Assembly (NCBI GenBank): GCA_019636275.1
Contig: JAHBXY010000019.1
Span: 8,764-72,763, forward strand
Length of the DNA: 64,000 nt
Direction: 5' to 3'
Source of the DNA: Planctomycetota bacterium
Lineage (GTDB): Bacteria; Planctomycetota; J058
A program made the translations under genes and the position numbers. Positions 3,332 through 52,233 of the stretch are shown here, piece after piece (position 1 is the first letter of the stretch; every line of letters starts with the position of its first letter). The notes beneath the pieces are model-generated. The model saw only the letters and a program-made list of their open reading frames with translations, had not been told where the DNA came from and ran no database searches.

Positions 3332-6004
<2,673 letters not shown>

Positions 6005-7652: not shown

Positions 7653-9641
<1,989 letters not shown>

Positions 9642-37301: not shown

Positions 37302-39959
37302 CTACTCGTACTCGTCCTGCTTGGCGTCCTTGCGCTCGTCGGCCTTGACGTTGGCCATGACGTCCTCGAGGTCGGTGATGCCGATCTTCACCTTGTGCAG
37401 GGCGTCCTGGAAGATCGTCGCCATGCCCACGCGGATGGCCGCCTCCTTGATCTCGTGGGACGAGGCCGACTTGTTGATCAGCTCGCGCAGCTCGTCGTTG
37501 AGCGTCAGCACCTCGTGGGTGCCCACGCGGCCCTTGTAGCCCACCCCGCTGCAGCGAGCGCAGAGCTTCTTCTCGCCCGACTTCCGCGCGTCGTTGTGGA
37601 TGTACATCTGCGGCGGGCAGGCCCGCGGGTCGCGCATGAGGAGCTTCATCTCGCGCTCGCTCGGCGTCCACTCCTTGCGGCACTTGTCGCACACGCGGCG
37701 CAGGAGGCGCTGCGCGCAGACGACGAGCAGCGACGAGCTCACCATGAAGGGCTCGATGCCCATCTCGATGAAGCGCGTCACCGTGCCGGCGGCGTCGTTC
37801 GTGTGCAGGGTCGAGAACAGGAGGTGACCCGTGAGCGAGGCCTCGATGGCGATCTCCGCCGTCTCGAGGTCACGGATCTCGCCGACGAGGATGATGTCCG
37901 GGTCCATACGCAGGTAGCACTTCAGCGCCGCCGCGAAGGTCAGGCCGATGTCCTTCTGCATCTGCATCTGGTTGATGCCGTCGAGCGGGTACTCGATCGG
38001 GTCCTCGGCCGTCTGGATGTTGACGTCGATCGAGTTCACCTCGGTGAGGCCCGAGTAGAGCGTCGTCGTCTTGCCCGAGCCGGTGGGGCCGACGTTGAGC
38101 ACCATGCCGTAAGGCTGCTTGCAGCCCCAGCGGTACTTGGCCAGGTTCTGCTCGGAGAAGCCCATGGCGTCGAGGCCGAGGGCGATCGAGCCCTTGGCCA
38201 GGAGGCGCATGACGCACTTCTCGCCGAAGGCCATGGGGCCGGTGGCGACGCGCAGGTCGAGGTCGAGGCCGCGCTTGGAGAAGCGCTTGAACTTGATCTT
38301 GCCGTCCTGCGGCAGGCGCCGCTCGGCGATGTCGAGGTTCGACATGATCTTGATGCGCGAGAGCACCGCCGGGATCGCCTTGAGCGGCAGGCTCATGCGC
38401 TCCTGCAGGTCGCCGTCGACGCGGTAGCGCACGCGCGCCTTGCCCTCGTAGGGCTCGATGTGGATGTCCGACGCGCCGCGCGTGTAGGCGTCCTCGATGA
38501 TGCGGTTGACGAGCTTGATGATCGGGCTCGAGTCCTCCTCGGACTCGCCATCCTTGATCTCGACCCGCTCCGCCTCGCCGCCGAGCTCGTTGGTGAGCTC
38601 GTCGAACTCGGCCGCCGTCTGGTCCTTCTTGCGCCGCTTGAGGCGCTCGTCGAGCACGTGCTTGATCTGGGCCTCGGTCGAGACGAGGACCTCGCCGATC
38701 TGCAGGTCGGTGGCCGCCTCGAACGACGCCCGCCGCGGCTGGTCGAGCGGGTTGGCCATGATGACCTGCAGCGACTTGCTGTCGAGCTTCTTCAGCGGCA
38801 GGATCTCGAACTTCTGCACCGCGTCGACGCCGACGACCTCCCACAGGCGGTCGTCCCACTCGAGGTCGGGGTTGGTGCAGTCGAACACCTCGGCGTTCGC
38901 CAGGCGCGCGTAGTAGCCGGCGATCTCCTGGTCGGAGCGCTCGAGGCCCGGCTCGCGGCAGATGTGGATCAGCCGGCCCATGTAGGCGGCGATCTCCTCG
39001 AGCAGCTTGAGGTCCTGGTAGCTGAAGAACTCCTCCCCGCTCTGCGGGTCCTTGTTCATCACCTGGATCGCGCCGTACGACTGCTCGCCGTCGCAGATGG
39101 GGATGGTGAGCATCGTGCGCACCTCGTAGCCGGTGAGGCGGCCGAGGTGGTTCTCGAACTCGCGGTCGCCGCGCGCGTCGAGCGAGGTGATCGACTTGCG
39201 CCCGTCCACGGCGCGGCCCAGGATCCCGGCGCCCGGCGGGATGACCGTCTGCCCCAGCTTGTCGAGGCTGCGCGTGAAGCGCTCCTCGAGGCCCGGATGG
39301 TTCTTGAACAGCGCCTTGGAGTAGAAGAGGTGCGCGAAGTGCGCCGCGCGCTTCTCGTCGAGCGAGTAGACGATGATCACCTCGGCGCTCAGCGGGTCGA
39401 CGAGCTTGCCCACCGTGAGCCGGTAGATCGTGTCGAGCTGCGACTCGCGGACCGGGTCCTTGCGCGTCAGGTAGCGGACGAGGGTGTTGACGACCTTCTC
39501 GACCCGCTGGTCGCCGGCGACGCCCGCGCGCTGCTTGCGCGGGCGGCGGCGGCCCGTGACGACCGTCGCGGCCGGGTCGACCTCGACGGGCTTCTTCTCC
39601 TCCGTCGTCTCGAGCCCCTCGAAGAAGTCGTCCAGGGCGGTGGAGAAGATCGAGACCCCGGCGTCGTCCTGGTCCTCGTCCTCGTGGGTGAGGGCGGGCG
39701 CGTCGCCGTCGCCGCCGCCCAGCCAGTCGAGGCCCGCGCCCTCGTCGGCCGGCTCGTCGCCGCCGCTCTCCTTGAGCCACTCGAGCGCGTCCTGGAAGTC
39801 CTCCTCGACCTCCTTCTTGGCCGCCGGCTTGGCCGCCGCGGGCTTGGCCGGCGCGGGCTTGGCCGGCGCGGGCTTGGCCGGCGCGGGCCTGGCCGCCGCC
39901 GGCTTCTTGGGGGTTTCAGCCTCGTCGAGCCAGCCCAGCGCGTCGTCGTCGTCGCTCAT
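37302..39959 (-). CDS. GspE/PilB-family secretion ATPase with N-terminal (PAKPA)n repeats and a GAF domain
   Basis: Walker A GPTGSGKTT, Asp box, Walker B DPDIILVGEIRD, His box LLFSTLHTND, C-terminal tetracysteine (CDKC…CARCSG). An N-terminal GAF-like region lies at about aa 180–330. Confidence 0.85.
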   Translation of the reverse strand: MSDDDDALGWLDEAETPKKPAAARPAPAKPAPAKPAPAKPAAAKPAAKKEVEEDFQDALEWLKESGGDEPADEGAGLDWLGGGDGDAPALTHEDEDQDDAGVSIFSTALDDFFEGLETTEEKKPVEVDPAATVVTGRRRPRKQRAGVAGDQRVEKVVNTLVRYLTRKDPVRESQLDTIYRLTVGKLVDPLSAEVIIVYSLDEKRAAHFAHLFYSKALFKNHPGLEERFTRSLDKLGQTVIPPGAGILGRAVDGRKSITSLDARGDREFENHLGRLTGYEVRTMLTIPICDGEQSYGAIQVMNKDPQSGEEFFSYQDLKLLEEIAAYMGRLIHICREPGLERSDQEIAGYYARLANAEVFDCTNPDLEWDDRLWEVVGVDAVQKFEILPLKKLDSKSLQVIMANPLDQPRRASFEAATDLQIGEVLVSTEAQIKHVLDERLKRRKKDQTAAEFDELTNELGGEAERVEIKDGESEEDSSPIIKLVNRIIEDAYTRGASDIHIEPYEGKARVRYRVDGDLQERMSLPLKAIPAVLSRIKIMSNLDIAERRLPQDGKIKFKRFSKRGLDLDLRVATGPMAFGEKCVMRLLAKGSIALGLDAMGFSEQNLAKYRWGCKQPYGMVLNVGPTGSGKTTTLYSGLTEVNSIDVNIQTAEDPIEYPLDGINQMQMQKDIGLTFAAALKCYLRMDPDIILVGEIRDLETAEIAIEASLTGHLLFSTLHTNDAAGTVTRFIEMGIEPFMVSSSLLVVCAQRLLRRVCDKCRKEWTPSEREMKLLMRDPRACPPQMYIHNDARKSGEKKLCARCSGVGYKGRVGTHEVLTLNDELRELINKSASSHEIKEAAIRVGMATIFQDALHKVKIGITDLEDVMANVKADERKDAKQDEYE

Positions 39960-40045
39960 GACCCCTCATCGAGCCCGCGGCCGGGTCGCTGCCCGGTCGC
40001 GGAAGTCTCGGCGCGTGAGCGTACAGGGTCGGCCGGGGGCCTTCA

Positions 40046-40099
40046 AGCCGGGAGGTGGGTCACCCGCCGCCGGGGAGCGCCAGCAGGTCGGCGACGGCG
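40046..40099. repeat. direct repeat A (copy of the 3' end of the 40974..42902 gene)
   Basis: agccgggaggtgggtcacccgccgccggggagcgccagcaggtcggcgacggcg is nearly identical to 40961..41014. Confidence 0.5.
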
Positions 40100-40153
40100 G
40101 CGCGGGCGAACGAACGCCGGCGCATGACGCGTCCGTGACCGCCGCCGACCAGG

Positions 40154-40948
40154 TTGGCGCGCATGAGCCGACGCGCCGCCCTCCTCACCCTGACCGCCCT
40201 CGCCGCCTGCGCCTGCCCCCGGCCCGCGGCGACGGCGTCCGCAGACGAACAGGCCCCCGCCTCCGCGGCGCCCGCCCCGGTCACCTCGAGCGCGGTGACG
40301 GTCCGTCGCCTGGTCCGCTACGCCGCGTTCGCGGCGGCCACGGACGAGCGCGGCGCCGCCACGAACGTGCTCGTCACGGTCGTGCGGGCCGACGACGTCG
40401 CGGTCGGCGACCTTTCGCTGCGCGGGACCTGGGCGGCGGCGGTCGGCGTCGTCCCTGCGAACCGGACCTGCCCCGAGCGCTACGCGCTGTTCGGCGACGC
40501 GCGCGCGGAGCCGGCGCGGCGCGAGGCCATGCTCGTCGTGCTCCGCGAGCACCTCTCGCGGTCGGAGCACGCGTGGTACCGGCCGACGTTCGAGGCGCCG
40601 CTCCTGGCGGAGCTCGGCGCGCACGGCTACGTGCAGCTCAAGGAGTCCGCCGACGGCGACACCGCCGACGTCGACGTGAGCTCGGGCTCGCTGCCCACGG
40701 CCGTGACTGTCCGCCCGCCGGGCGGCGGGGCGCCGTGGATCGACCTGCGCCTGCCGCCGCCGATCGAGCAGCTCCGGGGGCCGCCGATCCCGTCGCTGGA
40801 GGCGACGGCCGACCTGGCCCACCCGGTCATGCCCGTGCTCGGCCTGACCGTCGTCGACCCGATCAGCGGACGGCGCCTCGCCGCGCGGCCGGGGACCTAC
40901 GCGTTCGGCGCGCACTGGACGCCGCGCGACCCGGCGCTGGTCAGGTGA
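40154..40948 (+). CDS. hypothetical lipoprotein (opposite strand, embedded in the ATPase cluster)
   Basis: Signal peptide with a lipobox (LTALAACAC); no family motif. Confidence 0.5.
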   Translation: MARMSRRAALLTLTALAACACPRPAATASADEQAPASAAPAPVTSSAVTVRRLVRYAAFAAATDERGAATNVLVTVVRADDVAVGDLSLRGTWAAAVGVVPANRTCPERYALFGDARAEPARREAMLVVLREHLSRSEHAWYRPTFEAPLLAELGAHGYVQLKESADGDTADVDVSSGSLPTAVTVRPPGGGAPWIDLRLPPPIEQLRGPPIPSLEATADLAHPVMPVLGLTVVDPISGRRLAARPGTYAFGAHWTPRDPALVR

Positions 40949-40960
40949 CCACGCAGGCGA

Positions 40961-41014
40961 GCCGGGAGGTGGGTCACCCTCCGCCCGGGAGCCCCAGCAG
41001 GTCGGCGACGGCGT
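40961..41014. repeat. direct repeat B (the authentic 3' end of the 40974..42902 gene)
   Basis: See repeat A; together the two repeats flank the lipoprotein gene. Confidence 0.5.
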
Positions 41015-42902
41015 CCACCGGGGTGTCACCCTGGCGCACGAGCTCGAGGGCCCGCGCGGCGAGCGGCGTCGAGCCGGGGGCCGGGGAGAGCTGGCCGTCC
41101 GGGCCCGGGCGCATGAGCTCGGCGAGGGCCAGGACGCCCTGCGCGCCCTGGTCGGCGCAGGCGGGGCAGCCCAGGCCCACCCAGCGCGGCAGCCGCTCGA
41201 GGAGCGCCGGGTCGAGGCGCAGGCGGCGCGTGGGCGCCTTCGTCTGCTGGCAGGCGATGCGGCAGCGCGGGCAGATGAGCGGGACGACGCGGCGGGCCAG
41301 CACGGCGCGCACGTGGGTGCGGGCGAGCTCGGCCGGGAGGCCCGCGAGCTGCAGGCGCAGGAGGGCCGACCGCGCGTCGGGGGCCGTGACCGTGACCACG
41401 GCGGCGCCGCCGGCGAGCGCCACGTCGGTGATCAGGCGCAGGGCGTCGTCGGCGCCGTCGTCGACCCCGAGCCAGTCGGGGGCCGGGTGCAGGAGGGCGT
41501 CGCGGTGCGGTGCCGCCTCGTCGAGGTCGAGGAGCGTGATCCCCGGCAGGTCGCGCCGCGGGCGCCGCTCGAGCGACACGACCGCGCCGCCGATGCGCGT
41601 GGCCCGCTCGAGGACGGCGTGGTACGCCTCCGTCTTGCCGCCGCGGCGCGGCCCGGCGATCACGACGATCCCCGCGCCGTGGGCGAGCGCCGCCTCGAAC
41701 GAGGCCAGCGCGTCGAGCGACAGGCCGAGCTGCGAGAGGCCGGCCGGGGCCCGCTCCTCGTCGCCCTCGAGCTCGATGGCCACGGCGGGCCCGAGCGCGG
41801 TGTGCAGGATGCGGAAGTCGAGGGTCACCGGCAGGCCCGAGACCTCGCAGCGGGCGCGCCCCTGGCGCACGCGCGCCCCGCCGCGGGCCGGCTCGAGGGC
41901 CAGCTCCTCCAGGCGCTCGGCCAGGGCTGGCGCGACCTCGGGGCCGACCTCGCGCTCCTTGCGCAGCTCGCCGCGCACCCGGAAGCGCAGGCTGCCGCGC
42001 CCGGCGCGCGGCTCGACGAGGACCTCGGCCGCGCCCTCCTCCAGCGCCTCGAGGAGGATCCCCTCGAACGGCAGGGCGAGGTCGAGCGGCGCGGCGTCCG
42101 CGCGCTCGTCGAGCTCCGGCGGCGGCGCGTCGTCGGCGCGCGGGCGCACGCCCAGGTCGGCCAGGGCCCCCGTCAGGGCGTCGGACGAGGCCAGGATCGC
42201 GTGCACCGGCCCGCCGACGAGGGCCTCGAGGTCGGTGTGGAGCTCGTCGTCGAGCGGGTCCCAGGCGGCCACGACGAGGGCGTCCTCCTCGCGGCGCACG
42301 GGCACGGCGCGGTAGACCTCGAGCGCGCGCGCCGGCAGGGCGCGGCGGCAGGCGGGGTCGACCTCGCCCGGGGCGGTGAGCGCCGGCAGACCGAGCTCGA
42401 GCCCGACGCCGCGCAGCGACGCGCCGAGCCGCTCGAGCACGCGGTCGCGCAGGAGCTCGTTGAGGACGCCGCCGCGGGCGCGGCGGTCCTCGAGGGCGCG
42501 CTCGACCTCCTCCGGCAGGACGAGGTCGCGCAGCGGCGCCGCTCCGTAAGCGAACGCCCGCGCGTCGAGGTCGAGGTCGAGCGTGAGGCGCAGGTCGCGC
42601 CGCAGGGCGCCGCGCGCCAGCAGCGCCTCGAGCCCCTCGCCCGGCCGGTCCTCGGGCGTGACCGCCCCCAGGGCCAGCAGGCGCTCGGCGAGGGCCGCCG
42701 CGCCCTGCTCGCGCTCGACCGCGCGCGCCCGCTCGATCGCGAGGTTGCGCCCGCAGCCGGCGCACAGGGCCTCGAGCAGGTTGTCGAGCAGGCGCACGGG
42801 CGTGCGCGCGCCGTCGCAGCGCGGGCACGGGACCGCCCGGCGCCCGATCCCGGCGGGGCGCCAGCGGAAGAACTCACCGGCCGGGGTCGCGCGCTCTCCC
42901 AT
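40974..42902 (-). CDS. divergent GspE-like ATPase with N-terminal zinc ribbon and T2SSE_N-like domains
   Basis: N-terminal CPRCDG…CAGCG; T2SSE_N-like LAERLLALGAVTPED…LEALLARGAL; Walker A GPRRGGKT; C-terminal CPRCRIAC…CPACADQG. The start lies 2 nt after the upstream stop. Confidence 0.7.
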   Translation of the reverse strand: MGERATPAGEFFRWRPAGIGRRAVPCPRCDGARTPVRLLDNLLEALCAGCGRNLAIERARAVEREQGAAALAERLLALGAVTPEDRPGEGLEALLARGALRRDLRLTLDLDLDARAFAYGAAPLRDLVLPEEVERALEDRRARGGVLNELLRDRVLERLGASLRGVGLELGLPALTAPGEVDPACRRALPARALEVYRAVPVRREEDALVVAAWDPLDDELHTDLEALVGGPVHAILASSDALTGALADLGVRPRADDAPPPELDERADAAPLDLALPFEGILLEALEEGAAEVLVEPRAGRGSLRFRVRGELRKEREVGPEVAPALAERLEELALEPARGGARVRQGRARCEVSGLPVTLDFRILHTALGPAVAIELEGDEERAPAGLSQLGLSLDALASFEAALAHGAGIVVIAGPRRGGKTEAYHAVLERATRIGGAVVSLERRPRRDLPGITLLDLDEAAPHRDALLHPAPDWLGVDDGADDALRLITDVALAGGAAVVTVTAPDARSALLRLQLAGLPAELARTHVRAVLARRVVPLICPRCRIACQQTKAPTRRLRLDPALLERLPRWVGLGCPACADQGAQGVLALAELMRPGPDGQLSPAPGSTPLAARALELVRQGDTPVDAVADLLGLPGGG

Positions 42903-42904
42903 CG

Positions 42905-44716
42905 TCAGGACCTGAGCTCCTCCACGAAGACCTTCCAGGCGGCCTCGAGCGCCTTGTCGAACGCCCGGCGCACGCGCGGGTCGTCGGTCCGCAGGGCGGC
43001 CCCATTCGTGGCGGGGGCGACGGCGGCGGCCGGCGCGGCCGGCGCGACCGGGGCGGCGGCCTCGACCGGCGCCGACCGGGCGGGGGCGACCGGGGGCGCG
43101 GCCACGGCCGCCGCCGCCGCATGGCGCGCCGAGTCGCCCGACATCGCCTCCTCGAGGCGCCGCGCGCTCTGGCGCAGGCGGTCGCGCAGCGCCGCCTCCT
43201 CGTCGTCGTCGTCATCGCGGGCGTCGTCGACCGGGCGCCCGGCGTCGATCATGCGGCCGACCTCGCTGGCGCTGAGCGGCACCTCGTCGTCGAGCGCCGG
43301 CACGGGGACGTCCTCGTCGTCGTCGGCCGGGTGCGAGGCCGAGGCCGCGCGCGACCCGGACAGGCCCGAGTCGAACACGTCGCCGCCGGGGATCGTCGCC
43401 GGCGGGGGCGGCGGCGGCGCGGCGACGTCGTCCGCGCTCTGGAAGGGGGACGACGCCGTGGCCGCCAGCTCCGGCTCGGGCCGCCGCGGGGGCACCGGCG
43501 GCGCCGGCGGCTGCGTCGGCGCCGGCGGCGCGGCGGCCTGCGTCCGCTCGGAGCCGGCGCGCGCCGGCTCTTCGAGGGCGCGCCTGGCGAGCCGCTCCGA
43601 CGCCGGCCGCTGGCTGATCGGCCGGTCGTCGAACGCCTCGGCCGCCCAGGCCCCGTCGGTCTCCATCTCGTCGCCGCTGTCCATGCGCTCGATCGCGCGC
43701 AGGTCGTCCTCGTCGAGGTCGACGTCGGAACCGATCTCGCTCACGTCCTCGGCCAGGTCCGCCTCGTCCTCGCCGCCCTCGGCTGCCACCTTCTCGACCA
43801 GGTCGTCGAGCTTGGCGGGGTCGATGTCCAGCTTGTCCTCGTCGTCGTCGAGGTCCTCGTCGAGGTTCACCCCGTCGAGGTCGTCGTCGTCCTCGTCGAG
43901 GTCCACGTCCTTGAGGTCGTCGTCGTCGAGGTCCACGCCCTTGAGGTCGTCGTCGTCGAGGTCGTCCTCGTCGAGGTCCACGTCCTTCAGGTCGTCGTCC
44001 TTCAGGTCGTCGTCCTTCAGGTCGTCGTCCTTCAGGTCGTCGTCCTTCAGGTCGTCGTCGTCGAGGTCCACCCCGTCGAGGTCGGCGCCGGCGTCGTCGA
44101 GGTCGGCCTCGTCGAGGTCGTCGTCGTCGAGGTCCACGTCCTTGAGGTCGTCGTCGTCGGCGTCGTCGTCGGCGGCCGGGGCCGGGCGGGCCGGCGCGGG
44201 CCTGGCCGGCGCCTCGGGCGCGCCCTTGAGGACGGGCGTCGGCCCGCTGGCGCTGAGCGCCCGCGTGTTGCCGCTGCGCGCCTTGGCCCGGTCGCGCTCA
44301 TCGATCCCCTTGCGCACGTCGGCGGCCTGCTTCGACGTGAGCTTCCCCTGCGCGACGAGGATCTCGGCCAGCCCCTCGACCTTGCCCTTGCCCTGGTAGG
44401 CGTCCTTCTGGGCGTCGAGGGCGCGCTCGATGTCGGCCTGCTGCAGGAGCTCCATGCGCAGGCACTGCCGCCCGAAGCGCTTGTCGAGGTCGCGCTGCTC
44501 GCGGTAGCGGCAGGCGTTGACCACCGACTGGTGCTGCCGCTCGCTCAGGAAGCCGAGGCGCACCATCACCTCGCCCAGCGGCGGCTTCTTCTTGCCGCCC
44601 TTGGCGAGCGAGTCCAGCTCCTCGGCCGCCTTGCGCACCTGGAAGCGCGTGACGAGCTTGTTGTCGAGGGCGATCTTCGTGTAGAGGTCCTCGACCGCCT
44701 GCGGATCAGAGCTCAC
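42905..44716 (-). CDS. T2SSE_N/MshEN-like domain protein with extreme acidic (DDDLKDVDL)n repeats and a Pro/Ala-rich tail
   Basis: Two GspE-N-like repeats at the N-terminus (…PLGEVMVRLGFLSERQ… and …GLAEILVAQGKLTSKQAADV…), then about 150 aa of Asp/Leu/Lys repeats. Confidence 0.6.
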   Translation of the reverse strand: MSSDPQAVEDLYTKIALDNKLVTRFQVRKAAEELDSLAKGGKKKPPLGEVMVRLGFLSERQHQSVVNACRYREQRDLDKRFGRQCLRMELLQQADIERALDAQKDAYQGKGKVEGLAEILVAQGKLTSKQAADVRKGIDERDRAKARSGNTRALSASGPTPVLKGAPEAPARPAPARPAPAADDDADDDDLKDVDLDDDDLDEADLDDAGADLDGVDLDDDDLKDDDLKDDDLKDDDLKDDDLKDVDLDEDDLDDDDLKGVDLDDDDLKDVDLDEDDDDLDGVNLDEDLDDDEDKLDIDPAKLDDLVEKVAAEGGEDEADLAEDVSEIGSDVDLDEDDLRAIERMDSGDEMETDGAWAAEAFDDRPISQRPASERLARRALEEPARAGSERTQAAAPPAPTQPPAPPVPPRRPEPELAATASSPFQSADDVAAPPPPPPATIPGGDVFDSGLSGSRAASASHPADDDEDVPVPALDDEVPLSASEVGRMIDAGRPVDDARDDDDDEEAALRDRLRQSARRLEEAMSGDSARHAAAAAVAAPPVAPARSAPVEAAAPVAPAAPAAAVAPATNGAALRTDDPRVRRAFDKALEAAWKVFVEELRS

Positions 44717-44859
44717 CTGAACGCTCCTGCGCGGCCGGCCCGCCCGGGCCCGCCGCCAACCACCTGATTGAACCTCGCCGCCCGGCCGGACGCATCAACT
44801 GAAGTCGAACCCGCGCTGGATCCCGGACCGCCGCGGCTCGTCTTGCGGCGGCGGCCCGC

Positions 44860-46200
44860 TCACCATCCGCCTGGCGGGGGCCCGGGGCACCGCCCGCATC
44901 GGGCCCGCCCCGGGCCCGGCCGGCAACCCCGCCCCAGGCCCGGCCGGCGGCGCCCCGCCCCGGGGCGCGGCGCCGCTCCGCCGGGCGGCGGCGTCGGCGC
45001 CGCGGGCGGCGGCGCGACCTCCCCGCTGTCGGCGAGGTTGATCGCGGCCGACGAGGTGACGTTCGTCGTGGCGCCCGGGTCGGCGCGGCGCAGCTCGACG
45101 TCCTTGCGGCCGAGCAGCGCGGTGGCCCCGCCGCGCTGCATGCCCTTGAGCATCAGCTTCAGGTCGCCCGGCGACGCGCTGTTCTCGAGCGCCGCCTCGG
45201 GCGTGATCAGGCGCCGGTTGACCAGCTCGACCAGCGCCTGGTTGAAGCTCAGCATGCGGTAGTAGCTGGACGAGCTCTCGATGGCCCGCGCCATGTCGTC
45301 GATCGCGCCCTTCTCGATGAGCTGCTTGATCGTCGGCGAGCAGACCATGACCTCGAACGCGGCCACGCGGCCGGTGCCGTCGGCCCGCCGGATGAGCCGC
45401 TGCGACACGACCCCGCGCAGGCACACCGACAGCGTGCGCAGGAGGCCCTGGCGGCCGTCGGCCGGGAACGCGTCGGTGATGCGGGTGATGCTCTGCTTGG
45501 CGTCGTTGGTGTGCAGCGTCGAGAGGACGAGGTGGCCGGTGCCGGCGGCGTGCAGGGCCAGCTCCATCGTCTCGCGGTCGCGCATCTCGCCGGCGAGGAT
45601 CACGTCGGGGTTCTGGCGCAGGGCGGCGCGCAGGGCGCGCGAGGTGTCGAGCACGTCCTCGCCGATCCCGCGCTGCGTGATGGTCGCCTTCCGGTCGGTG
45701 TAGACGAACTCGACCGGGTCCTCGATCGTGATGATGTGGGCGTGGCGCGTCTCGTTGATGTGCTCGACGATCGCCGCCAGCGTCGTCGACTTTCCGCTGC
45801 CGGTCGGCCCCGTGACGAGGATGATCCCGTGCGGCGCGCCGGCCAGGTCCTTCAGCACCGGCGGCAGCTTCAGCGCGTCGACCGTGGGCGTCTCGAGCGG
45901 GATGGACCGGATCACCGCGCCGACGCGGTTGCGCTGGTAGAAGACGTTCACGCGGAAGCGCGCCACGTCCTCGATCTCGAACGACAGGTCCACCTCGCGC
46001 TCGCGCTCGAGCCGCTTCACCCAGCCCTCGTCGAGCAGCGGCGCGACGTTCTGCCACAGCCGCTCCTTCGTCTGCACCGGGTGGTCCGACGGCAGGAGCT
46101 GCCCCGAGATGCGCATGAGCGGCGGGCGGCCCTCCTTGAGGATCAGGTCCGACCCGCCGCGGCGGTGCAGGTCGGTGAGGAGCTGCGTGAGCTGCGACAC
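44860..46200 (-). CDS. PilT/PilU-like retraction-type ATPase with an about 80-aa C-terminal extension
   Basis: Walker A GPTGSGKSTT, Walker B ILAGEMRD, His box LVLSTLHTNDA, AIRN-like motif; GTG start 1 nt after the stop of the upstream GAF gene. Confidence 0.85.
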   Translation of the reverse strand: MSQLTQLLTDLHRRGGSDLILKEGRPPLMRISGQLLPSDHPVQTKERLWQNVAPLLDEGWVKRLEREREVDLSFEIEDVARFRVNVFYQRNRVGAVIRSIPLETPTVDALKLPPVLKDLAGAPHGIILVTGPTGSGKSTTLAAIVEHINETRHAHIITIEDPVEFVYTDRKATITQRGIGEDVLDTSRALRAALRQNPDVILAGEMRDRETMELALHAAGTGHLVLSTLHTNDAKQSITRITDAFPADGRQGLLRTLSVCLRGVVSQRLIRRADGTGRVAAFEVMVCSPTIKQLIEKGAIDDMARAIESSSSYYRMLSFNQALVELVNRRLITPEAALENSASPGDLKLMLKGMQRGGATALLGRKDVELRRADPGATTNVTSSAAINLADSGEVAPPPAAPTPPPGGAAPRPGAGRRRPGLGRGCRPGPGRARCGRCPGPPPGGW

Positions 46201-46201
46201 G

Positions 46202-46777
46202 TCAGGCCCTCGCCGCGCGCAGCGTCCGGAGCTCGCAGCCGAGCGACACGAGCCCGCCGATGTAGCGGCCGAGGTGGCGGGCGAACTCGACCTCCTCGCC
46301 GCTGAAGGTCGAGCCGCAGCGCCTGTTCATGACCTGCAGGGCGCCGATGGGCTGGCCGTCGCACACGACGGGCGTCGTGAGCATGGAGCTCACCTCGTAG
46401 CCCACGGCGTCCGAGACCTCACGCGCGAAGCGCGGGTCCTTGTCGGCGTCGGAGACGGCGATCACCTCGTTGTCCCGGAAGGCGCTGCCGGCGATCCCCT
46501 GCCCGGGCTTGATCGTGATGTCGAGGGCCAGGACCTCCTGCGCCTTGGGGCCGCGCGCGGCGGCGAAGTAGAGCGCGCCCTGCTCGTCGTCGAACATGTA
46601 GAGGGCGCCCGAGCGGGCGTGGAAGAAGTCCATGGCCGCGTCCATGACGCCGTCGAACACGGCGGCGAAGTCGTCGGGCGCGGCGAACAGGTGCAGGAGC
46701 CGCTGCAGCACCTGGACCTGCGCCTGGAGCTGCGCGGTGTCGTCGAGCAGCGCCCGGTACTCCGTCTCCGTGGTCAA
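46202..46777 (-). CDS. stand-alone GAF-domain protein
   Basis: About 190 aa with a GAF-like pattern (…FDGVMDAAMDFFHARSGALYMFD…GQGIAGSAF…PIGALQVMN). TTG start with an upstream AGGGGG. The rest of the listed 499-aa ORF overlaps the kinase gene in another frame. Confidence 0.55.
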   Translation of the reverse strand: MTTETEYRALLDDTAQLQAQVQVLQRLLHLFAAPDDFAAVFDGVMDAAMDFFHARSGALYMFDDEQGALYFAAARGPKAQEVLALDITIKPGQGIAGSAFRDNEVIAVSDADKDPRFAREVSDAVGYEVSSMLTTPVVCDGQPIGALQVMNRRCGSTFSGEEVEFARHLGRYIGGLVSLGCELRTLRAARA

Positions 46778-46923
46778 GCGGCGCCCCCTGTCCGGCGGAC
46801 GGGGCCGACTATAGCCCGCGCGCCGGGCGTTGTGTGATCGACGGCGATGCCGGCGAGGGGGGCGCGCGCGGGCCGCCCGCTCGCTGAGGCGGCCGCCGAG
46901 GACCCGGCGATCGATCCCTGCCG

Positions 46924-48147
46924 TCAGAGGCTCCGGCGGGCGTCGCGCGCGAGGGCCACGACCTCGGCCGCCTCGCGGGGGCGGACGTCGGGCGCGGCCA
47001 GGAGGCGCTCGAGCAGGGCGAGCACGGCCGGCGGGAGGTCGGGGAGCAGGTCGCGCGGGCGGGGGAAGTCGCCGTCGAGGATGCGGCCGATCAGGGCCAT
47101 GGAGTCGTCGTCGGCCATGGGCGGGCGGCCGAGGAGCACCTCGAACGCCGAGACGCCGAGCGAGTAGAGGTCGACGCTCTCGTCGAACTCGGGCGAGCGG
47201 AACACCTCGGGCGCGAGGTACAGCGGGGTGCCGATGAACTCGCGCGAGAGCGTGATCCCGCGGTCGGAGAGGCGGCGCGCCAGGCCGAAGTCGCCGAGGA
47301 CGTGGCCGCCGTCGGCGTCGTAGAACACGTTGCCGGGCTTGACGTCGCGGTGCACGAGGCCGGCGGCGTGGAGGTGTTCGAGCGCCTCGCCCACCTGCTC
47401 GACGAGGCGCAGCGCGGCCTCGACCGGCTGGGGGCCGGCGCGCCGCACGCGCTGGCGCACGGAGCCGCCGGGGAGGAAGTCCATGACGTAGTAGAAGCAA
47501 TCCTCGTGGCGCCCGCTCTCGACGAAGCGCACGAGGCGCGGGTGCGTGAGCCCGCAGAGGGTGTCGATCTCGCGGCGGAAGCGCAGGAGCGTCTCGGTGC
47601 TGCCGACGAGGTGCGGCCAGACGACCTTGAGGGCGCGGACCGTCGGGTCGCCGTCGCGCACGGCCGTGAACACGCAGGCCGTGCCGCCGCGGCCGATGCA
47701 CTCGAGGAGCGCCCAGGGGCCGACGCGGTCGGGGATCGGGGTGAACTGCGCGACCTTGCGCGGCCGCAGGGCCCGCTCGAGCTTGGCCCCCAGCTCGGCC
47801 TCGTTGACGGGCTTGAGCAGGTAGTCGGTGGCGCCCAGGCGGAAGGCCTCCTCGAGCATGGCCTCCTCATCGGTGGCCGAGACGACGAGCACGGGCGGCG
47901 CGTTGGCGCCGAGCTGGTGCTTGACCTCCTGCACGACCTCGAGGCCGCTCATGTGCGGCATGCGCAGGTCGGTGATCACGGCCGCCGGCAGGTCGAGCGG
48001 GAGCTGGCGCATGGCCTCGCGCGGGTCGCCGTAGGCGCACACGTCGAAGCCGCGCTTGCGCAGGCGCGAGCTGAGCATGGCCAGGCACACGCCGTCATCA
48101 TCGACGAGCACGACCCGGCGCGAGGGGGAGGCGAGCGGTTCCGTCAC
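46924..48147 (-). CDS. response-regulator receiver domain fused to a Ser/Thr protein kinase
   Basis: REC (RRVVLVDDD…ITDLRMPHMSG…KP) then kinase (IGRGGTACV, ALKVV, HRDVKPGNV, DFGLAR, LAPE). GTG start at 48147. Confidence 0.75.
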   Translation of the reverse strand: MTEPLASPSRRVVLVDDDGVCLAMLSSRLRKRGFDVCAYGDPREAMRQLPLDLPAAVITDLRMPHMSGLEVVQEVKHQLGANAPPVLVVSATDEEAMLEEAFRLGATDYLLKPVNEAELGAKLERALRPRKVAQFTPIPDRVGPWALLECIGRGGTACVFTAVRDGDPTVRALKVVWPHLVGSTETLLRFRREIDTLCGLTHPRLVRFVESGRHEDCFYYVMDFLPGGSVRQRVRRAGPQPVEAALRLVEQVGEALEHLHAAGLVHRDVKPGNVFYDADGGHVLGDFGLARRLSDRGITLSREFIGTPLYLAPEVFRSPEFDESVDLYSLGVSAFEVLLGRPPMADDDSMALIGRILDGDFPRPRDLLPDLPPAVLALLERLLAAPDVRPREAAEVVALARDARRSL

Positions 48148-48476: not shown

Positions 48477-51169
48477 ATGGAAATCCGTAAGTTGTCGCCG
48501 GGCGACCGCATCCTCGACTACCGCATCCTCGAGCGCCTGGGCGAGGGCGGCTTCGGGGAGGTGTTCCGCGCCGAGCACGAGGTGCTCGGGCGGATCGTCG
48601 CCATCAAGGTCCCGCGGGACCAGGGCAGCCTCACGGCCCTGCGGCACGAGGGCGTGGTCCAGGCGTCGCTCGACCACCCCAACATCGTGCGCACGCTGGA
48701 GCTGAGCATCTCCCACGACCCGCCCTACGTCGTCATGGAGTACGTCGCCGGCGCGTCGCTGGCCGACCTCCTGCGCCGCGACGGGGCGCTGCCGTGGCGC
48801 CGGGCGGGCAAGGTCCTGCTCGAGGTGGCCCGAGCGCTGGCCCACGCGCACGGCCACGGGGTCGTCCACGGCGACGTGAAGCCGGGCAACGTCCTGGTGG
48901 AGAACGCCCGCATGACCGCCCCGGGGCAGCCGGCGCGCGTGCTGCTGACCGACTTCGGGCTCGGCCGCGTGTTCGAGGGGCCGCAGGGCTGCCTGCAGAT
49001 CTCGCGCAGCCTGGAGCTGGCCACGTCGGGCACCGAGGTCCAGGGCACGATCCGCTACCTGGCGCCGGAGCTGCTCCGCGGCGAGACGGCCGACGAGCGG
49101 GCCGACGTCTACTCGTTCGGCGTGCTCCTGTTCGAGATCCTGACCGGCCGCCTGCCCGAGGGGCGCGAGGTGCCGAGCGACCTGGCGCGCGACCTTCCGC
49201 CCGAGTTCGACCGGATCTTCGCTCGCACCTTCACGCGGCGGGAGCGGCGGCCGCGGTCGCTCGGGCCGACGATCGAGGACCTCGAGCAGGTGCTCGGTGA
49301 GCGGGTCGCGATCAAGGCGCCCGAGGCGCCGGCGCCGGCGCCGACGAACCTCGTCGTGCGGGCGGAGCCGGCGGCGCCGCCGCCGGTGGTCGCCTGCGCC
49401 GCGCCGCCGGTCGTCCGGGCGATCCCGGCCAGCCCGGGCCGGCGACCGCCCGCGCTGCGGCCGCTGGCACGCGTCGCCGCCCGCCGCCGGGGTGGCGCCG
49501 CCGCCGCCCGAGGTCGTGGCCGCCGTGCCCGCGCCGGCCCCGCGGCGCCGGTGGCCGCGATGCCGGCCGTCCCGGCCGCGTTCGCGCGCTGGCGCGACGC
49601 CGTCGTCGCGCAGGTCCGCGACCGCATGACGGCGGTGCGGGCGATGAACGTGAGCGACGGGCAGGGCTTCGACGTGTGCTTCGGCGTCAGCGCCGACGGC
49701 GAGCCGCACCACCGCGTCTACGCCCTGTTCCTCCCCGTCCTCGACGCGGCGACGGCGCGCTCGACGGTGGCCACGGCGCGGCAGATCTTCGAGCGCGAGA
49801 AGGGGATCTGGGAGAAGGAGGTCACCTTCGCGGTGGTCGCGCAGCAGGTGCGCGACCTCGACCAGGTGCTCTGGGCGTTCAAGTCGTTCTCGATGGGCTG
49901 GTGGCGCCGCCGCCGCATGATGCTCCACGACCTGGAGAGCGACCGCCTCTACGCGGCGGAGCTCGGCTGCGACCCGCGCGGCAACCCGCTCAAGCGCGCG
50001 TTCCTCGACGCCTCGTTCGAGGCGGTGCGGGCCGTCCCGCGAGGCGAGCCCGAGGTCACGGCCACGCCGGTGCGCCGGCGCTCGGTCCGCGGCACGGCGT
50101 GGGGCGCGGCCCTGGCCCTGATCATGGCCGTCGGCCTCATGGGCAGCGTCATGGCGATCGAGTTCGCCAGCCGGCAGGTGCGCAAGAGCCGGGCGCGGAA
50201 GAAGGCCACGCCCACGCTGACGACGGCCCTCGAGGGCCCGAGCCGCGCCGCGGCGACCTCGCGCCAGGCCGAGGGCGCGGTCGCCCCGCGGGCACCGGAG
50301 TCGCCCGACGCCGCGATCGCCCCGCGCGCCACGGGCTCGGCGACGACGCTCGACGGCGCCGTCGCCCCGCGCGCCCCAGGCTCGGCCACCGAGGGCGCCG
50401 TCGCCCGCGCGCGCCCGGGCTCGGCCCCGAGGGGCGCCGTCGCCCGCGGGCGCCCGGCTCGGCCACCGAGGGCGCCGTCGCCCCGCGCGCCCCGGGCTCG
50501 GCCACCGGGCGCCGTCGCCCCGCCGCGCCAGGCTCGGCCACCGGGGGCGCCGTCGCCCCGCGGGCACCCGGCTCGGCCACCGAGGGCGCCGTCGCCCCGC
50601 AGGCGCCCGGCTCGGCCACCGGGGGGCCGTCGCCCCAGGCGCCCGGCTCGGCCACCGAGGGCGCCGTCGCCCCGCGTGCGCCCGGCTCGGCCACCGAGGG
50701 CGCCGTCGCCCCGCAGGCGCCCGGCTCGGCCACCGAGGGCGCCGTCGCCCCGCGGGCGCCCGGCTCGGCCACCGGGGGCGCCGTCGCCCGCGTGCGCCCG
50801 GCTCGGCCACCGAGGGCGCCGTCGCCCCGCGGGCGCCCGGCTCGGCCACCGAGGGGCGCCGTCGCCCCGCGGGCGCCCGGCTCGGCCACCGGGGCGCCGT
50901 CGCCCCGCGTGCGCCGGTTCGGCCACCGGGCGCCGTCGCCCCGCGTGCGCCCGGCTCGGCCACCGATGGCGCCGTCGCCCGCGTGCCGGCTACGGCCACC
51001 GGGGCGCCGTCGCCCGCGTGCCCCGGGCTCGGCCACCGAGGGCGCCGTCGCCCCGCGCGCGCCCGGCTCGGCCACCGAGGGCGCCGTCGCCCCGCGTCGC
51101 AAGGTCCCCGCGCGCGTGCCCGACGAGTTCACGCCGCGCGAGGAGCCGCGGGTCCTCGAGTGGTTCTGA
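48477..51169 (+). CDS. kinase-like protein (probable pseudokinase, HGD loop) – TM – (GSATEGAVAPRAP)n repeat protein; the frame is scrambled inside the repeats
   Basis: GEGGFGEV, AIKV, VHGDVKPGNVL, DFGLGR, YLAPE; TM GAALALIMAVGLMGSVMAI. The repeat region is open in all three frames; a clean non-repeat C-terminus (…PDEFTPREEPRVLEWF*) and a stop at 51169 are in frame 2. Confidence 0.55.
50270..51110 (+). repeat. about 20 tandem copies of a 39-bp unit (cccggctcggccaccgagggcgccgtcgccccgcgggcg) with ±1-nt variants
   Basis: Direct visual periodicity; the translated motif PGSATEGAVAPRA hops between frames. Confidence 0.8.
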
Positions 51170-51194
51170 CCTGAACGAAGAACGGTCTCCCGCC

Positions 51195-51223
51195 GCGCCC
51201 GGCCTCCACACGAGGCCGGGCGC
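51195..51223 (+). terminator. perfect 10-bp GC hairpin after the repeat-protein stop
   Basis: gcgcccggcc-tccacacga-ggccgggcgc; no U-tract. Confidence 0.35.
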
Positions 51224-51329
51224 GCGCGTTCCGGATCAACACGCCCTCTGCTCCCTCTGCTCCTCTGTGGTGAACCATCGAAGCCAGGGCGAGGTTGACC
51301 GTACACCTCACGGAGCGATAGAAGGGGGC

Positions 51330-52163
51330 ATGCCCCCCACCGCCGTCGAGAAGAAGCTCAAGGTCGGCCGCAGCCTCGCCGCCCAGGCCGACCCCTACGC
51401 GCTCTACCAGCGCGCCGTCCAGCAGCCGGACGCCGACCTGGACTTCGTCTCGCGCGTCTTCCGCCGCCGCTACGGCCGCCCGCCGCGCGACGTGCGCGAG
51501 GACTTCTGCGCCGCGGCGTTCACGGCCTGCCACTGGGTGCGCCGCAACCGCGAGAACCGGGCCTGGGGCGTGGACCTCGACCCCGCGCCGCTGGCCTGGG
51601 GCCGGACCCACAACGTGTCGGGGCTGCGCGACGACCAGCGGGCGCGCCTGACGCTCGTCCAGGCCGACGTCCTGGCGCCGTCGGTCGTGCCGCCGGTGGA
51701 CATCGTGCTCGCGCAGAACTTCTCCTACTTCATCTTCAAGACGCGCGAGGCCCTGCGCAGCTACTTCGCGGCGGCGCGCGCGGGCCTGCGCCCCGAGGGC
51801 CTCCTCGTGCTCGACCTGTTCGGCGGGCCCGACTCGCAGCGCATGGGAGAGGAGCGCACCCGGCACAAGGGCTTCACCTACGTGTGGGACCAGGCGCGCT
51901 ACGACGCGATCACCAACGAGATCCTGTGCCACATCCACTTCGAGTTCCCCGACCGGAGCAAGCTGCGCAAGGCGTTCAGCTACGACTGGCGCCTGTGGAC
52001 GATCCGCGAGGTGCGCGAGCTCCTGGCCGAGGCCGGCTTCCAGGCCTCCGAGGCCTACTGGGAGGGGGCCACGGCCGAGGGCGAGGGCAACGGGATCTAC
52101 ACGCGACGCGAGTCGGCGATCAACGAGGACTCGTGGCTGGCGTACGTCGTCGGGATCGCCTGA
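51330..52163 (+). CDS. class I SAM-dependent methyltransferase-like protein
   Basis: Own start with an AGAAGGGGG Shine–Dalgarno (gaagggggcATG). Motifs …LVLDLFGGPD… and a Rossmann-like β-strand pattern. The 1228-aa fused ORF is judged an artefact. Confidence 0.6.
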   Translation: MPPTAVEKKLKVGRSLAAQADPYALYQRAVQQPDADLDFVSRVFRRRYGRPPRDVREDFCAAAFTACHWVRRNRENRAWGVDLDPAPLAWGRTHNVSGLRDDQRARLTLVQADVLAPSVVPPVDIVLAQNFSYFIFKTREALRSYFAAARAGLRPEGLLVLDLFGGPDSQRMGEERTRHKGFTYVWDQARYDAITNEILCHIHFEFPDRSKLRKAFSYDWRLWTIREVRELLAEAGFQASEAYWEGATAEGEGNGIYTRRESAINEDSWLAYVVGIA

Positions 52164-52233
52164 CCGCGCCGACCGGCCTCGACCTCTCGCGGCGCGCTGG
52201 CCCGGGTCGGGGCCGAGGGCTACACTCCAGCCG

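What the first reader, a model, noticed from the sequence alone, without database searches (positions are those of the whole stretch)
37302..48147. Compact cluster of three secretion-superfamily ATPases wired to GAF, T2SSE_N/MshEN, zinc-ribbon, receiver and Ser/Thr-kinase modules, with no pilin, platform, secretin or peptidase
Six minus-strand genes run 5' to 3': a REC–Ser/Thr kinase, a stand-alone GAF protein, a PilT-like ATPase with a C-terminal extension, an acidic-repeat T2SSE_N protein, a zinc-ribbon GspE-like ATPase, and a GspE/PilB-like ATPase with a GAF domain and (PAKPA)n repeats. Several are coupled by 1–2 nt gaps (GAF/PilT: TGAcGTG; acidic protein/GspE-like: TGAcgATG). Classical T2SS/T4P/Tad loci pair each ATPase with an inner-membrane platform (GspF/PilC/TadBC), pilins and a secretin; none is seen within 10 kb either side. 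The module therefore looks like a cytoplasmic, signal-gated motor or regulator set, possibly c-di-GMP-gated if the T2SSE_N-like domains are true MshEN-like receptors (an inference from the family, not established here), plus phospho-gated via REC–STK. It may be a self-contained, undescribed system, or a regulatory pod acting on a machine encoded elsewhere.
Basis: partly seen in the sequence, partly recalled or inferred. Interest (0 to 1): 0.8.

Follow-up and report, generated by a model that had tools for sequence, protein, structure and literature searches.

The report
Pilus-motor ATPases with lineage-specific regulators
An uncultured planctomycete keeps the two cytoplasmic motor ATPases of a type IV pilus-like machine next to a catalytically dead copy of one motor, an acidic adaptor-like protein, a small sensor protein and a protein kinase. 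It is a conserved, undescribed control module, but most likely not a new kind of machine.

Summary
The six minus-strand genes are real and have essentially the reported domains. Four corrections apply.
- The source is a Planctomycetota MAG (locus tags KF878_…), not Myxococcota.
- The "zinc-ribbon GspE-like ATPase" (B) belongs to a pseudo-ATPase family. It keeps the PilB/GspE fold and its Cys4 sites but has lost the Asp box, the Walker B glutamate and both His-box histidines. Half the family has also lost the Walker A lysine.
- The acidic protein (C) gets no Pfam T2SSE_N hit. Its N-terminus is only a tandem of MshEN_N-like helical hairpins, and it fails the published c-di-GMP motif.
- A plus-strand ORF inside a 914-nt insertion bracketed by 54-nt direct repeats splits B from A. 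A 93%-identical relative lacks it.

The full order, REC-kinase / GAF / PilT / C / B / GAF-PilB, recurs in three species-level genomes. Sub-modules (C-B-A, kinase-C-A, GAF-PilT-C) recur in about ten more, all uncultured Planctomycetota. No platform, pilin, secretin or peptidase lies nearby in any of them.

Best reading (about 0.6): these are the extension and retraction motors of a type IVa-like filament whose membrane parts are encoded elsewhere, together with clade-specific regulators. It is a new variant of a known kind, of moderate interest.

The parts
46924..48147 (-). F: REC + Ser/Thr protein kinase (407 aa from the GTG at 48147)
   Evidence: Pfam Response_reg 6e-23 and Pkinase 2e-42. The REC acidic pocket, D, T/S and K residues are present, as are HRDVKPGN, DFG and APE. 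The start matches the L001 orthologue. Orthologues sit next to C/E in L001, L002, L010, L013 and L022.
46202..46777 (-). E: stand-alone GAF protein (191 aa, TTG start), coupled to D by TGAcGTG
   Evidence: Pfam GAF 3.5e-17. The same 191-aa product is annotated at NCBI as MBX3466856.1. It is 36% identical to A's GAF domain. The junction was read directly. The E-D-C order recurs in L001, L010, L024 and L026.
44795..46200 (-). D: PilT/PilU-family ATPase core, a Pro-rich repeat linker and a conserved C-terminal ...RGFDFS tail. An apparent frameshift lies at about 44950-44980 (the core frame stops at 44860; the tail frame stops at 44795).
   Evidence: TIGR01420 scores 411.5 bits against a 319.1 cutoff. 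It aligns over residues 1-353 to Geobacter PilT4 (6ojx) at 3.7e-92 with Walker A, Asp box, Walker B and His box intact. The L001 and L010 orthologues carry the tail in frame. Tandem repeats lie at 44904-45015.
42905..44716 (-). C: N-terminal domain of four helical hairpins resembling MshEN_N (residues 1-140), a long acidic disordered region and a conserved C-terminal helix. Coupled to B by TGAcgATG.
   Evidence: No Pfam hit. NF053729 scores 27.9 bits against a 38 cutoff. The AF2 model has pLDDT 84.5 and is all-helical. The best low-rmsd fold matches are PilF-GSPIIA and MshE-c-di-GMP, with probabilities 0.96 and 0.92 but E-values above 0.5. A profile search hits only MshE (0.0095) and PilB N-termini in the PDB. 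C is the common denominator of all the module variants.
43839..44171 (-). Acidic (DDDLK)n tandem-repeat array inside C
   Evidence: TRF: period 15, 21.6 copies; 45-nt super-period.
40974..42902 (-). B: PilB/GspE-fold pseudo-ATPase with an N-terminal CxxC...CxxC zinc ribbon, a degenerate MshEN domain, an N2 domain and a degenerate C-terminal domain that keeps the tetracysteine site
   Evidence: Pfam MshEN 1.5e-10 and T2SSE 2e-19. PDB alignments show EDPxE->ERRPR, GEIRD->VDDGAD and TGH..HTNDA->AGG..TAPDA. In the 14-member family alignment the Walker A GK[ST] is kept in only 7 of 14, both histidines are lost in all, and the Cys sites are conserved. The AF2 model matches GspE/PilF/PilB at E about 1e-25, with low confidence across residues 440-484.
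40163..40948 (+). X: plus-strand ORF (261 aa, lipoprotein-like N-terminus) inside an insertion. Not part of the conserved module.
   Evidence: The GC3 frame signal is on the plus strand. No Pfam, NCBIfam or PADLOC hit. NCBI annotates it as KF878_08135 and it is a singleton cluster. It is absent from the L001 B-A spacer.
40046..40099 (.). Direct repeat copy 1, a duplicate of B's last codons plus 3' flank, bounding the X insertion
   Evidence: the repeat finder: 54 nt, 94% identity, spacing 914. The L001 alignment shows the interval between the repeats is extra.
40960..41013 (.). Direct repeat copy 2, the true 3' end of B
37302..39959 (-). A: active PilB/GspE-type ATPase (885 aa). In order: an acidic N-terminal disordered region with three conserved LxWL motifs, GAF, the MshEN alpha/beta half only, N2, and the C-terminal ATPase domain.
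   Evidence: T2SSE 1.6e-123 and GAF. It aligns to Geobacter PilB at 3e-130 with Walker A, Asp box, Walker B, His box and CDKC..CARC intact. TIGR02538 scores 556 against a 675.65 cutoff, and TIGR02533 scores 509 against 630.25. The N-terminal motifs are conserved in orthologues of 47-93% identity.
39820..39905 (-). (PAKPA)n repeat in A's N-terminal disordered region
   Evidence: TRF: period 15, 5.7 copies. It is present only in the closest orthologues.
48477..52163 (+). STK2: divergently transcribed Ser/Thr kinase of 1228 aa with one predicted TM helix (540-565). It is a conserved neighbour of F.
   Evidence: Pkinase 2.3e-42. TM prediction. The divergent STK2/F pair is conserved in L001, L002, L010, L013 and L022.

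Best explanation
The locus encodes the cytoplasmic motor and control layer of a type IVa-pilus-like (type IV filament) machine in an uncultured Planctomycetota clade. The platform, pilins, secretin and peptidase are encoded elsewhere in the genome.

Shown:
- A is an intact hexameric-type assembly ATPase whose usual N-terminal helical subdomain (MshEN_N) is replaced by a GAF domain, preceded by a motif-bearing disordered region.
- D is an intact PilT-family (retraction-type) ATPase with a Pro-rich tail that ends in a conserved RGFDFS peptide.
- B is a family-wide catalytically dead paralogue that keeps the PilB fold and both zinc sites.
- C carries two MshEN_N-like helical units followed by an acidic disordered region.
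- E is a free-standing paralogue of A's GAF domain and is translationally coupled to D.
- F is a receiver-kinase with all its catalytic residues.
- The gene order is conserved.

Inferred:
- C is the hub. It is the only gene present in every variant of the module. It would act as an adaptor that recruits or sequesters A and/or B, possibly supplying in trans the helical N1 subdomain that A lacks.
- B modulates A, either by forming mixed rings with it or by competing for the same docking site on the platform.
- E gates D.
- F, and probably the membrane kinase STK2, add phospho-control, with the disordered regions of A and C as plausible substrates.
- The net output would be a signal-dependent choice between filament extension and retraction.
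For: - A and D have intact catalytic motifs and family-level scores.
- B's catalytic motifs are degenerate across 14 family members, while the fold and Cys sites are kept.
- The accessory proteins mirror pieces of a PilB N-terminus. E is 36% identical to A's GAF and B is 22% identical to A's MshEN-ATPase part. C resembles MshEN_N.
- Synteny: F-E-D-C-B-A in the window, L001/L008 and L010. F-C-B-A in L013. F-C-A in L002 and L022/23. C-B-A in L006/12 and L011/18. E-D-C in L024 and L026.
- The E/D and C/B junctions are tightly coupled.
- A's N-terminal disordered region and D's C-terminus carry conserved short motifs, which suggests docking interactions.
- An A-type ATPase lies directly downstream of two GFTLLE prepilin-like genes and a protein with an N-terminal TM segment in L003.
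- Established knowledge: PilB/GspE- and PilT-type ATPases are known to act only on GspF/PilC-type platforms of type IV filament machines, and accessory cofactors and second ATPases (PilZ-FimX, SgmX, TfpB, PilU) are common (PMC11656802).
Against: - No platform, pilin, secretin or peptidase gene was seen in the 64-kb window or in the roughly 10-kb flanks of about 12 related loci. I could not search the rest of any genome, so the existence of the machine is assumed.
- A falls below both the PilB and the GspE equivalog cutoffs.
- The pilin adjacency in L003 is not conserved in its relative L028.
- D's AIRNLIRE-equivalent motif is divergent (TIKQLIEK).
- Planctomycetes are reported to lack a retraction ATPase and twitching motility (bioRxiv 10.1101/817700), so canonical behaviour cannot be assumed.
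- All protein-protein interactions are untested.
Confidence: 0.6

Rival explanations
1. It is a self-contained cytoplasmic machine unrelated to pili. An A ring, possibly mixed with dead B subunits, would work on a soluble or acidic substrate or adaptor (C). D would be the opposing motor, and the GAF domains and kinases would be inputs.
For: Membrane and filament genes are consistently absent around the module in all sampled genomes. No TM segment is predicted in any of A-F. A lacks the helical half of the N1 domain that other extension ATPases possess. C-B occurs without A nearby in L019 and L007.
Against: No PilB/GspE/PilT-family ATPase is known to work without a GspF/PilC platform (own knowledge; PMC11656802). 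Planctomycetal genes for a single machine are often dispersed (own knowledge). A-type ATPases occur as orphans across Planctomycetota and Opitutaceae without C or B. One A-type ATPase sits with prepilins.
Confidence: 0.12
2. A is the motor of a type II secretion-like pseudopilus rather than a retractile pilus. D would be an unrelated or separately used PilT paralogue.
For: A scores nearly as well on GspE (509 bits) as on PilB (556 bits) and passes neither cutoff. B scores slightly better on GspE (99 bits) than on PilB (84 bits). The E-D pair is missing from many module variants (L002, L006, L013, L018, L022). Planctomycetes are reported not to twitch (10.1101/817700).
Against: E-D-C adjacency recurs in five lineages. 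A's best structural and sequence relatives are type IVa PilB proteins from Geobacter and Myxococcus.
Confidence: 0.15
3. The genes are neighbours by chance in a kinase-rich genome and have no functional link.
For: The window holds at least six Ser/Thr kinases. A is an orphan in more distant taxa.
Against: The gene order is conserved down to 47-49% identity of A. B and C orthologues are found almost only next to each other and/or A. The stop/start gaps are 1-2 nt.
Confidence: 0.03

Closest known systems
Type IVa pilus motor pair PilB / PilT (Myxococcus xanthus, Geobacter, Pseudomonas)
   Same: A aligns end to end over N2 and the C-terminal domain with Geobacter PilB (3e-130) with all catalytic and Zn motifs present. 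D aligns with PilT4 (4e-92) and passes TIGR01420.
   Different: A is below the PilB equivalog cutoff, carries GAF instead of the MshEN_N helical subdomain, and has a motif-rich disordered N-terminus. D has a Pro-rich tail ending in RGFDFS and a divergent AIRNLIRE motif. No pilC, pilM-Q or pilA lies nearby.
c-di-GMP-binding MshEN ATPases (V. cholerae MshE, T. thermophilus PilF, C. perfringens PilB2; PMC5013675)
   Same: C's N-terminal hairpins give MshE as the only non-PilB PDB sequence hit. Their top low-rmsd fold matches are MshE and PilF GSPII domains. B has both MshEN subdomains.
   Different: The helical unit is on a separate, ATPase-less protein. The two best repeats each miss the relaxed 24-residue motif at two positions and are spaced by 10 residues rather than 5. 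A and B have no motif match at all.
PilB cofactors and adaptors: PilZ-FimX (Xanthomonas/Pseudomonas), MglA-SgmX-FrzS (M. xanthus) (PMC11656802, PMC7519303)
   Same: The concept is the same: dedicated soluble proteins that recruit or license the extension ATPase in response to signals.
   Different: There is no sequence relationship. Here the accessory proteins are paralogues of pieces of the ATPase itself (GAF, MshEN_N, dead ATPase), combined with Ser/Thr kinases.
Two ATPases serving one machine: PilB+TfpB (Acinetobacter baylyi) and PilT+PilU (PMC11656802)
   Same: A second paralogous ATPase is encoded alongside the primary motor and presumably acts on the same machine.
   Different: TfpB and PilU are catalytically active, whereas the B family has lost its catalytic residues. 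A scores only 413 bits on the TfpB model against an 850 cutoff, and B scores 78.

Membership tests
PilT/PilU family type IVa pilus ATPase (TIGR01420) | Whole-protein score above the curated cutoff | tested here: met
   D scores 411.5 bits against a 319.1 cutoff.
PilT/PilU family type IVa pilus ATPase (TIGR01420) | Walker A, Asp box, Walker B and His box intact | tested here: met
   GPTGSGKS, EDPVEF, NPDVILAGEMRD and TGHLVLSTLHTNDA are all present.
PilT/PilU family type IVa pilus ATPase (TIGR01420) | AIRNLIRE motif of retraction-competent PilT | tested here: inconclusive
   D has TIKQLIEK where Geobacter PilT4 has AIRNLIRE. The hydrophobic positions are kept and the polar ones are changed.
Type IV-A pilus assembly ATPase PilB (TIGR02538 equivalog) | Whole-protein score above the curated cutoff | tested here: not met
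   A scores 556.3 against 675.65; B scores 84.3.
Type IV-A pilus assembly ATPase PilB (TIGR02538 equivalog) | Catalytic motifs and tetracysteine Zn site | tested here: met
   A has GPTGSGKT, EDPIEY, DPDIILVGEIRD, TGHLLFSTLHTNDA and CDKC...CARC. B keeps only the Cys site, plus Walker A in its close relatives.
Type II secretion ATPase GspE (TIGR02533 equivalog) | Whole-protein score above the curated cutoff | tested here: not met
   A scores 509.4 against 630.25; B scores 99.2.
MshEN c-di-GMP receptor domain (PMC5013675) | Two 24-residue motifs, in relaxed form [RKPN]hGxxhhxx[GAS]hhxxxxhxxxhxx[QNKRYWST], joined by a 5-residue spacer | tested here: not met
   No exact match in A-F, STK2 or STK3. 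C residues 46-69 and 80-103 each have 2 mismatches and are 10 residues apart.
MshEN c-di-GMP receptor domain (PMC5013675) | MshEN_N four-helix fold / profile match | tested here: inconclusive
   For C's N-terminus, NF053729 scores 27.9 bits against a 38 cutoff. Foldseek top hits are 9g1w and 5htl with rmsd 2.7-2.9 A over 53-64 residues and probabilities 0.96 and 0.92, but E-values of 0.6-1.3. The profile hits 5htl at E=0.0095.
MshEN c-di-GMP receptor domain (PMC5013675) | Binds c-di-GMP | not testable with these tools
   Needs ITC or DRaCALA on C(1-150), B(1-255) and A.
Canonical T4P / T2SS / Tad gene cluster | ATPase encoded with a GspF/PilC/TadBC platform, pilins, a secretin and a prepilin peptidase | tested here: not met
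   None is found among the gene calls across the window or in the flanks of related loci. The only exception is prepilin-like genes beside an A-type ATPase in L003.
Canonical T4P / T2SS / Tad gene cluster | Platform and pilin genes present elsewhere in the same genome | not testable with these tools
   Whole MAGs could not be retrieved.
GAF domain proteins | Pfam GAF above the gathering score | tested here: met
   E scores 63.6 bits against 22.4. A scores 33.9 against 22.4, and on GAF_2 38.7 against 28.6. The ligand is unknown.
Known anti-phage defence systems (PADLOC) | Specific model hits to system components | tested here: not met
   Only generic kinase-domain hits for F and a weak P-loop hit for D. 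There are no hits for A, B, C, E or X.

The most novel reading that the evidence does not exclude
C-B-A, with D-E in some genomes, is an autonomous cytoplasmic apparatus. A PilB-fold ring built from active (A) and permanently dead (B) subunits would be organised by an acidic protein bearing MshEN_N units (C) and would do mechanical work on something other than a pilus platform. That would be the first platform-independent member of the secretion-ATPase superfamily.
Probability: 0.1. Interest if true: 0.85.

Novelty: new variant of a known kind. Interest (0 to 1): 0.45.

Why it matters
How extension and retraction ATPases are chosen and licensed at type IV filament machines is an open question. 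The known answers (PilZ-FimX, SgmX/MglA, c-di-GMP-MshEN, TfpB, PilU) are lineage-specific.

This locus offers a different solution that is conserved across a clade. It combines a dead paralogue of the extension motor, a trans-encoded tandem of the MshEN_N helical unit on an acidic disordered protein, GAF domains both fused to the extension motor and free beside the retraction motor, and Ser/Thr kinases. The dead paralogue gives a direct way to test whether PilB-type rings can be regulated by mixed oligomers or by site competition.

It also shows that a PilT-family ATPase is conserved in part of the Planctomycetota, a phylum reported to lack retraction ATPases (bioRxiv 10.1101/817700).

The limits are that the organisms are uncultured and that the machine the module serves has not been seen.

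Tried and rejected
1. Myxococcota origin: rejected. B is 100% identical to a protein of a Planctomycetes MAG, and all close homologues are from Planctomycetota.
2. Tad/Flp ATPase, the NCBI name given to some homologues: rejected. The TadA-type model scores only 29 bits, whereas the PilB and GspE models score over 500.
3. Anti-phage defence system: rejected. PADLOC returns only generic kinase and P-loop hits.
4. c-di-GMP riboswitch or any other Rfam element in the window: none found.
5. Promoter and terminator scans of the cluster were uninformative at this GC content.
6. Word-indexed homologue search with C's N-terminus found only 8 proteins. The exhaustive profile search was needed. It showed about 12 orthologue clusters plus a broad superfamily of 646 representatives that co-occurs with DUF4388/PatA_N, FapA, kinases, zinc ribbons and FHA.
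7. Looking for C-like domains in other window proteins with the narrow C profile found only C itself. STK3's N-terminal resemblance rests on one weak BLAST hit (7e-5).
8. Retrieving the source contig's official gene calls by exact protein look-up failed.
9. Literature searches for a GAF-PilB, a PilB pseudo-ATPase, or MshEN in Planctomycetes found nothing relevant.
10. More A-type contexts (L004, L005, L027, L028) were checked for a pil operon. A is an orphan there.

Full report
**Observation.**
The window is 70-80% GC, so raw ORF lists are swamped by spurious frames. Third-position GC and a codon model single out six minus-strand genes between 37302 and 48147:
- F, 46924..48147
- E, 46202..46777
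- D, 44860..46200
- C, 42905..44716
- B, 40974..42902
- A, 37302..39959

Pfam confirms the following:
- REC plus Ser/Thr kinase in F
- GAF in E
- T2SSE in D
- MshEN plus a weak T2SSE in B
- GAF, a marginal MshEN and a very strong T2SSE in A

So are the PAKPA repeats (39820-39905) and the acidic repeats (43839-44171).

The flanks hold a SUF Fe-S operon, a short-chain dehydrogenase, a methyltransferase, further Ser/Thr kinases, Fpg and glycogen phosphorylase. No platform, pilin, secretin or peptidase appears anywhere in the window. No Rfam family is present.

**Corrections to the observation.**
1. B is 100% identical to KF878_08140 of a Planctomycetes MAG, and every close homologue of A, B and C comes from uncultured Planctomycetota.
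2. A plus-strand ORF, X (40163..40948), lies between B and A, as shown by the frame signal.
   - It sits in a 914-nt interval bracketed by 54-nt direct repeats that duplicate B's 3' end.
   - The interval is absent from the 93%-identical relative L001, where B and A are 85 nt apart.
   - X is a singleton protein with no family hit.
3. D's PilT core frame stops at 44860. However, the C-terminal peptide conserved in orthologues (...GIQRGFDFS in L001...KINRGFDFS in L010) is encoded in another frame ending at 44795. A frameshift or assembly error therefore lies at about 44950-44980, inside a Pro-rich tandem-repeat linker.

**The proteins.**
*A (885 aa)* aligns with Geobacter PilB at 3e-130. Walker A, the Asp box, Walker B, the His box and the tetracysteine site are all intact.
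- It falls below both the PilB cutoff (556 against 676 bits) and the GspE cutoff (509 against 630 bits).
- Its Pfam MshEN match covers only the alpha/beta half of that domain. Where the helical half would be, A has a GAF domain.
- Ahead of the GAF lies an acidic disordered region. It carries three conserved LxWL motifs, an APAL motif, an SIFSxALDDFFEGLE motif and a basic patch.
- These motifs are kept in orthologues of 47-93% identity but are missing from the roughly 727-aa Opitutaceae versions.

*D* passes the PilT/PilU family cutoff (411 against 319 bits) and has all catalytic motifs. Its AIRNLIRE-equivalent motif is divergent.

*B* has the PilB/GspE fold: the AF2 model has pLDDT 77, and Foldseek matches GspE, PilF and PilB at about 1e-25. 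Its active site is gone.
- EDPxE has become ERRPR, GEIRD has become VDDGAD, and TGH..HTNDA has become AGG..TAPDA.
- Across 14 family members, both histidines are lost in all and the Walker A GK[ST] survives in only 7.
- The C-terminal tetracysteine and an N-terminal CxxC..CxxC ribbon are conserved.
- B is therefore a pseudo-ATPase under selection for something other than catalysis.

*C* has no Pfam hit.
- Its first 140 residues form four helical hairpins (AF2 pLDDT 84.5).
- The only PDB sequence matches of this region are MshE and PilB N-termini.
- Its best low-rmsd fold matches are PilF-GSPIIA and the MshE-c-di-GMP complex, though with non-significant E-values.
- It scores below threshold on NCBIfam's MshE-related c-di-GMP motif.
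- An exhaustive profile search finds about 12 orthologue clusters and a wider superfamily of 646 representatives. That superfamily is fused to PatA_N/DUF4388, FapA, kinases, zinc ribbons and FHA.
- Neither C nor any other cluster protein matches even the relaxed published 24-residue MshEN motif, and C's two near-matches are spaced by 10 residues rather than 5 (PMC5013675).
- c-di-GMP gating is therefore unproven and not predicted by the defining motif.

*E* is 36% identical to A's GAF domain.

*F* has all the residues expected of an active REC domain and an active kinase.

Hydropathy scanning finds no TM segment in A, C, D, E or F, and only two marginal peaks in Ala/Val-rich stretches of B. 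The divergent neighbour STK2 has one.

**Conservation.**
Each variant below lists the loci that carry it.
- Full order F-E-D-C-B-A, with STK2 divergent from F: the window, L001/L008 (A 93% identical) and L010 (A 49%, B 54%).
- F-C-B-A: L013.
- F-C-A: L002 and L022/23.
- C-B-A: L006/12, L011/18, and probably a JGI contig.
- B-A: L009.
- C-B without A nearby: L019.
- E-D-C: L024 and L026.

C is present in nearly every variant. The B family comprises only about 28 clusters, all from Planctomycetota.

A-type GAF-PilB proteins are much more widespread across Planctomycetota and Opitutaceae, and there they are usually orphans. In L003 one lies directly behind two prepilin-like genes (GFTLLE) and a protein with an N-terminal TM segment. 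This adjacency is not kept in the related L028.

No locus shows a platform, secretin or peptidase nearby.

**Interpretation.**
The module pairs an extension-type ATPase with a retraction-type ATPase. Both belong to families known only as motors of type IV filament machines (PMC11656802). The simplest reading is that these are the motors of a T4aP-like machine whose membrane parts lie elsewhere, with clade-specific regulators attached.

The accessory proteins correspond to separated pieces of a PilB N-terminus:
- a free GAF (E)
- a tandem MshEN_N unit on an acidic disordered protein (C)
- a dead MshEN-N2-CTD body (B)

This suggests regulation by mimicry, competition or mixed assembly, with C as the hub and kinases as inputs. 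These interactions are inferred, not shown.

**Rivals.**
- An autonomous cytoplasmic machine. The consistent absence of membrane genes favours it, but it has no precedent.
- A T2SS-type assignment of A.
- Chance adjacency, which the synteny refutes.

**Novelty.**
I found no description of a GAF-PilB, of a PilB-family pseudo-ATPase, or of this module in the searchable literature. The 2024 review of PilB cofactors does not mention GAF.

It is best classed as a new variant of a known kind. The motors are familiar and the control layer is new. Interest is moderate because the organisms are uncultured and the served machine has not been seen.

Noticed in passing
window 40046-41013: A 914-nt insertion carries a singleton plus-strand ORF (X, lipoprotein-like N-terminus). 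It is bracketed by 54-nt direct repeats at 94% identity that duplicate the last codons of gene B. The closest relative lacks it. The mechanism is unknown, and the repeats are far longer than a usual target-site duplication.
   Followed up: partly
window 44795-45015: The PilT gene appears frame-shifted within a Pro-rich tandem-repeat linker. The orthologues' conserved C-terminal peptide RGFDFS is encoded out of frame here. This could be real slippage or a MAG assembly error.
   Followed up: partly
window 39480-39959 (A residues 1-160): The N-terminal disordered region of the GAF-PilB carries three conserved LxWL motifs, an APAL motif, an SIFSxALDDFFEGLE motif and a basic RRRPRKQR patch. All are conserved at 47-93% identity and look like docking motifs.
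   Followed up: partly
window 48477-53652: Two further Ser/Thr kinases are transcribed divergently from the cluster. STK2 (1228 aa) has one TM helix and keeps its position next to F in five other lineages. STK3 has an N-terminus with weak similarity to C's hairpins plus a CxxC..CxxC ribbon.
   Followed up: partly
L003 6842-14264 and L028 12942-14294: In a related lineage the A-type ATPase follows two prepilin-like genes and a 560-aa protein with an N-terminal TM segment. A conserved protein of 421-450 aa with no Pfam hit follows it in both L003 and L028. The L003 copy has about five predicted TM segments; the L028 copy was not scanned for TM segments.
   Followed up: partly
window 9751-11931: A metallo-beta-lactamase-fold protein is fused to two cyclic-nucleotide-binding domains. 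Together with the many kinases (3332-6004, 7653-9641), this marks a signalling-rich region.
   Followed up: no
L019 4365-5546: A protein combining an MshEN domain with TPR repeats is encoded about 4.5 kb upstream of a C-B pair that lacks an adjacent A.
   Followed up: no
proteins P0166-P0262: Pfam's FumaraseC_C model hits 21 of 66 proteins carrying the MshEN_N-like hairpin domain. This is probably a spurious match to the helical repeat and may cause mis-annotation.
   Followed up: no
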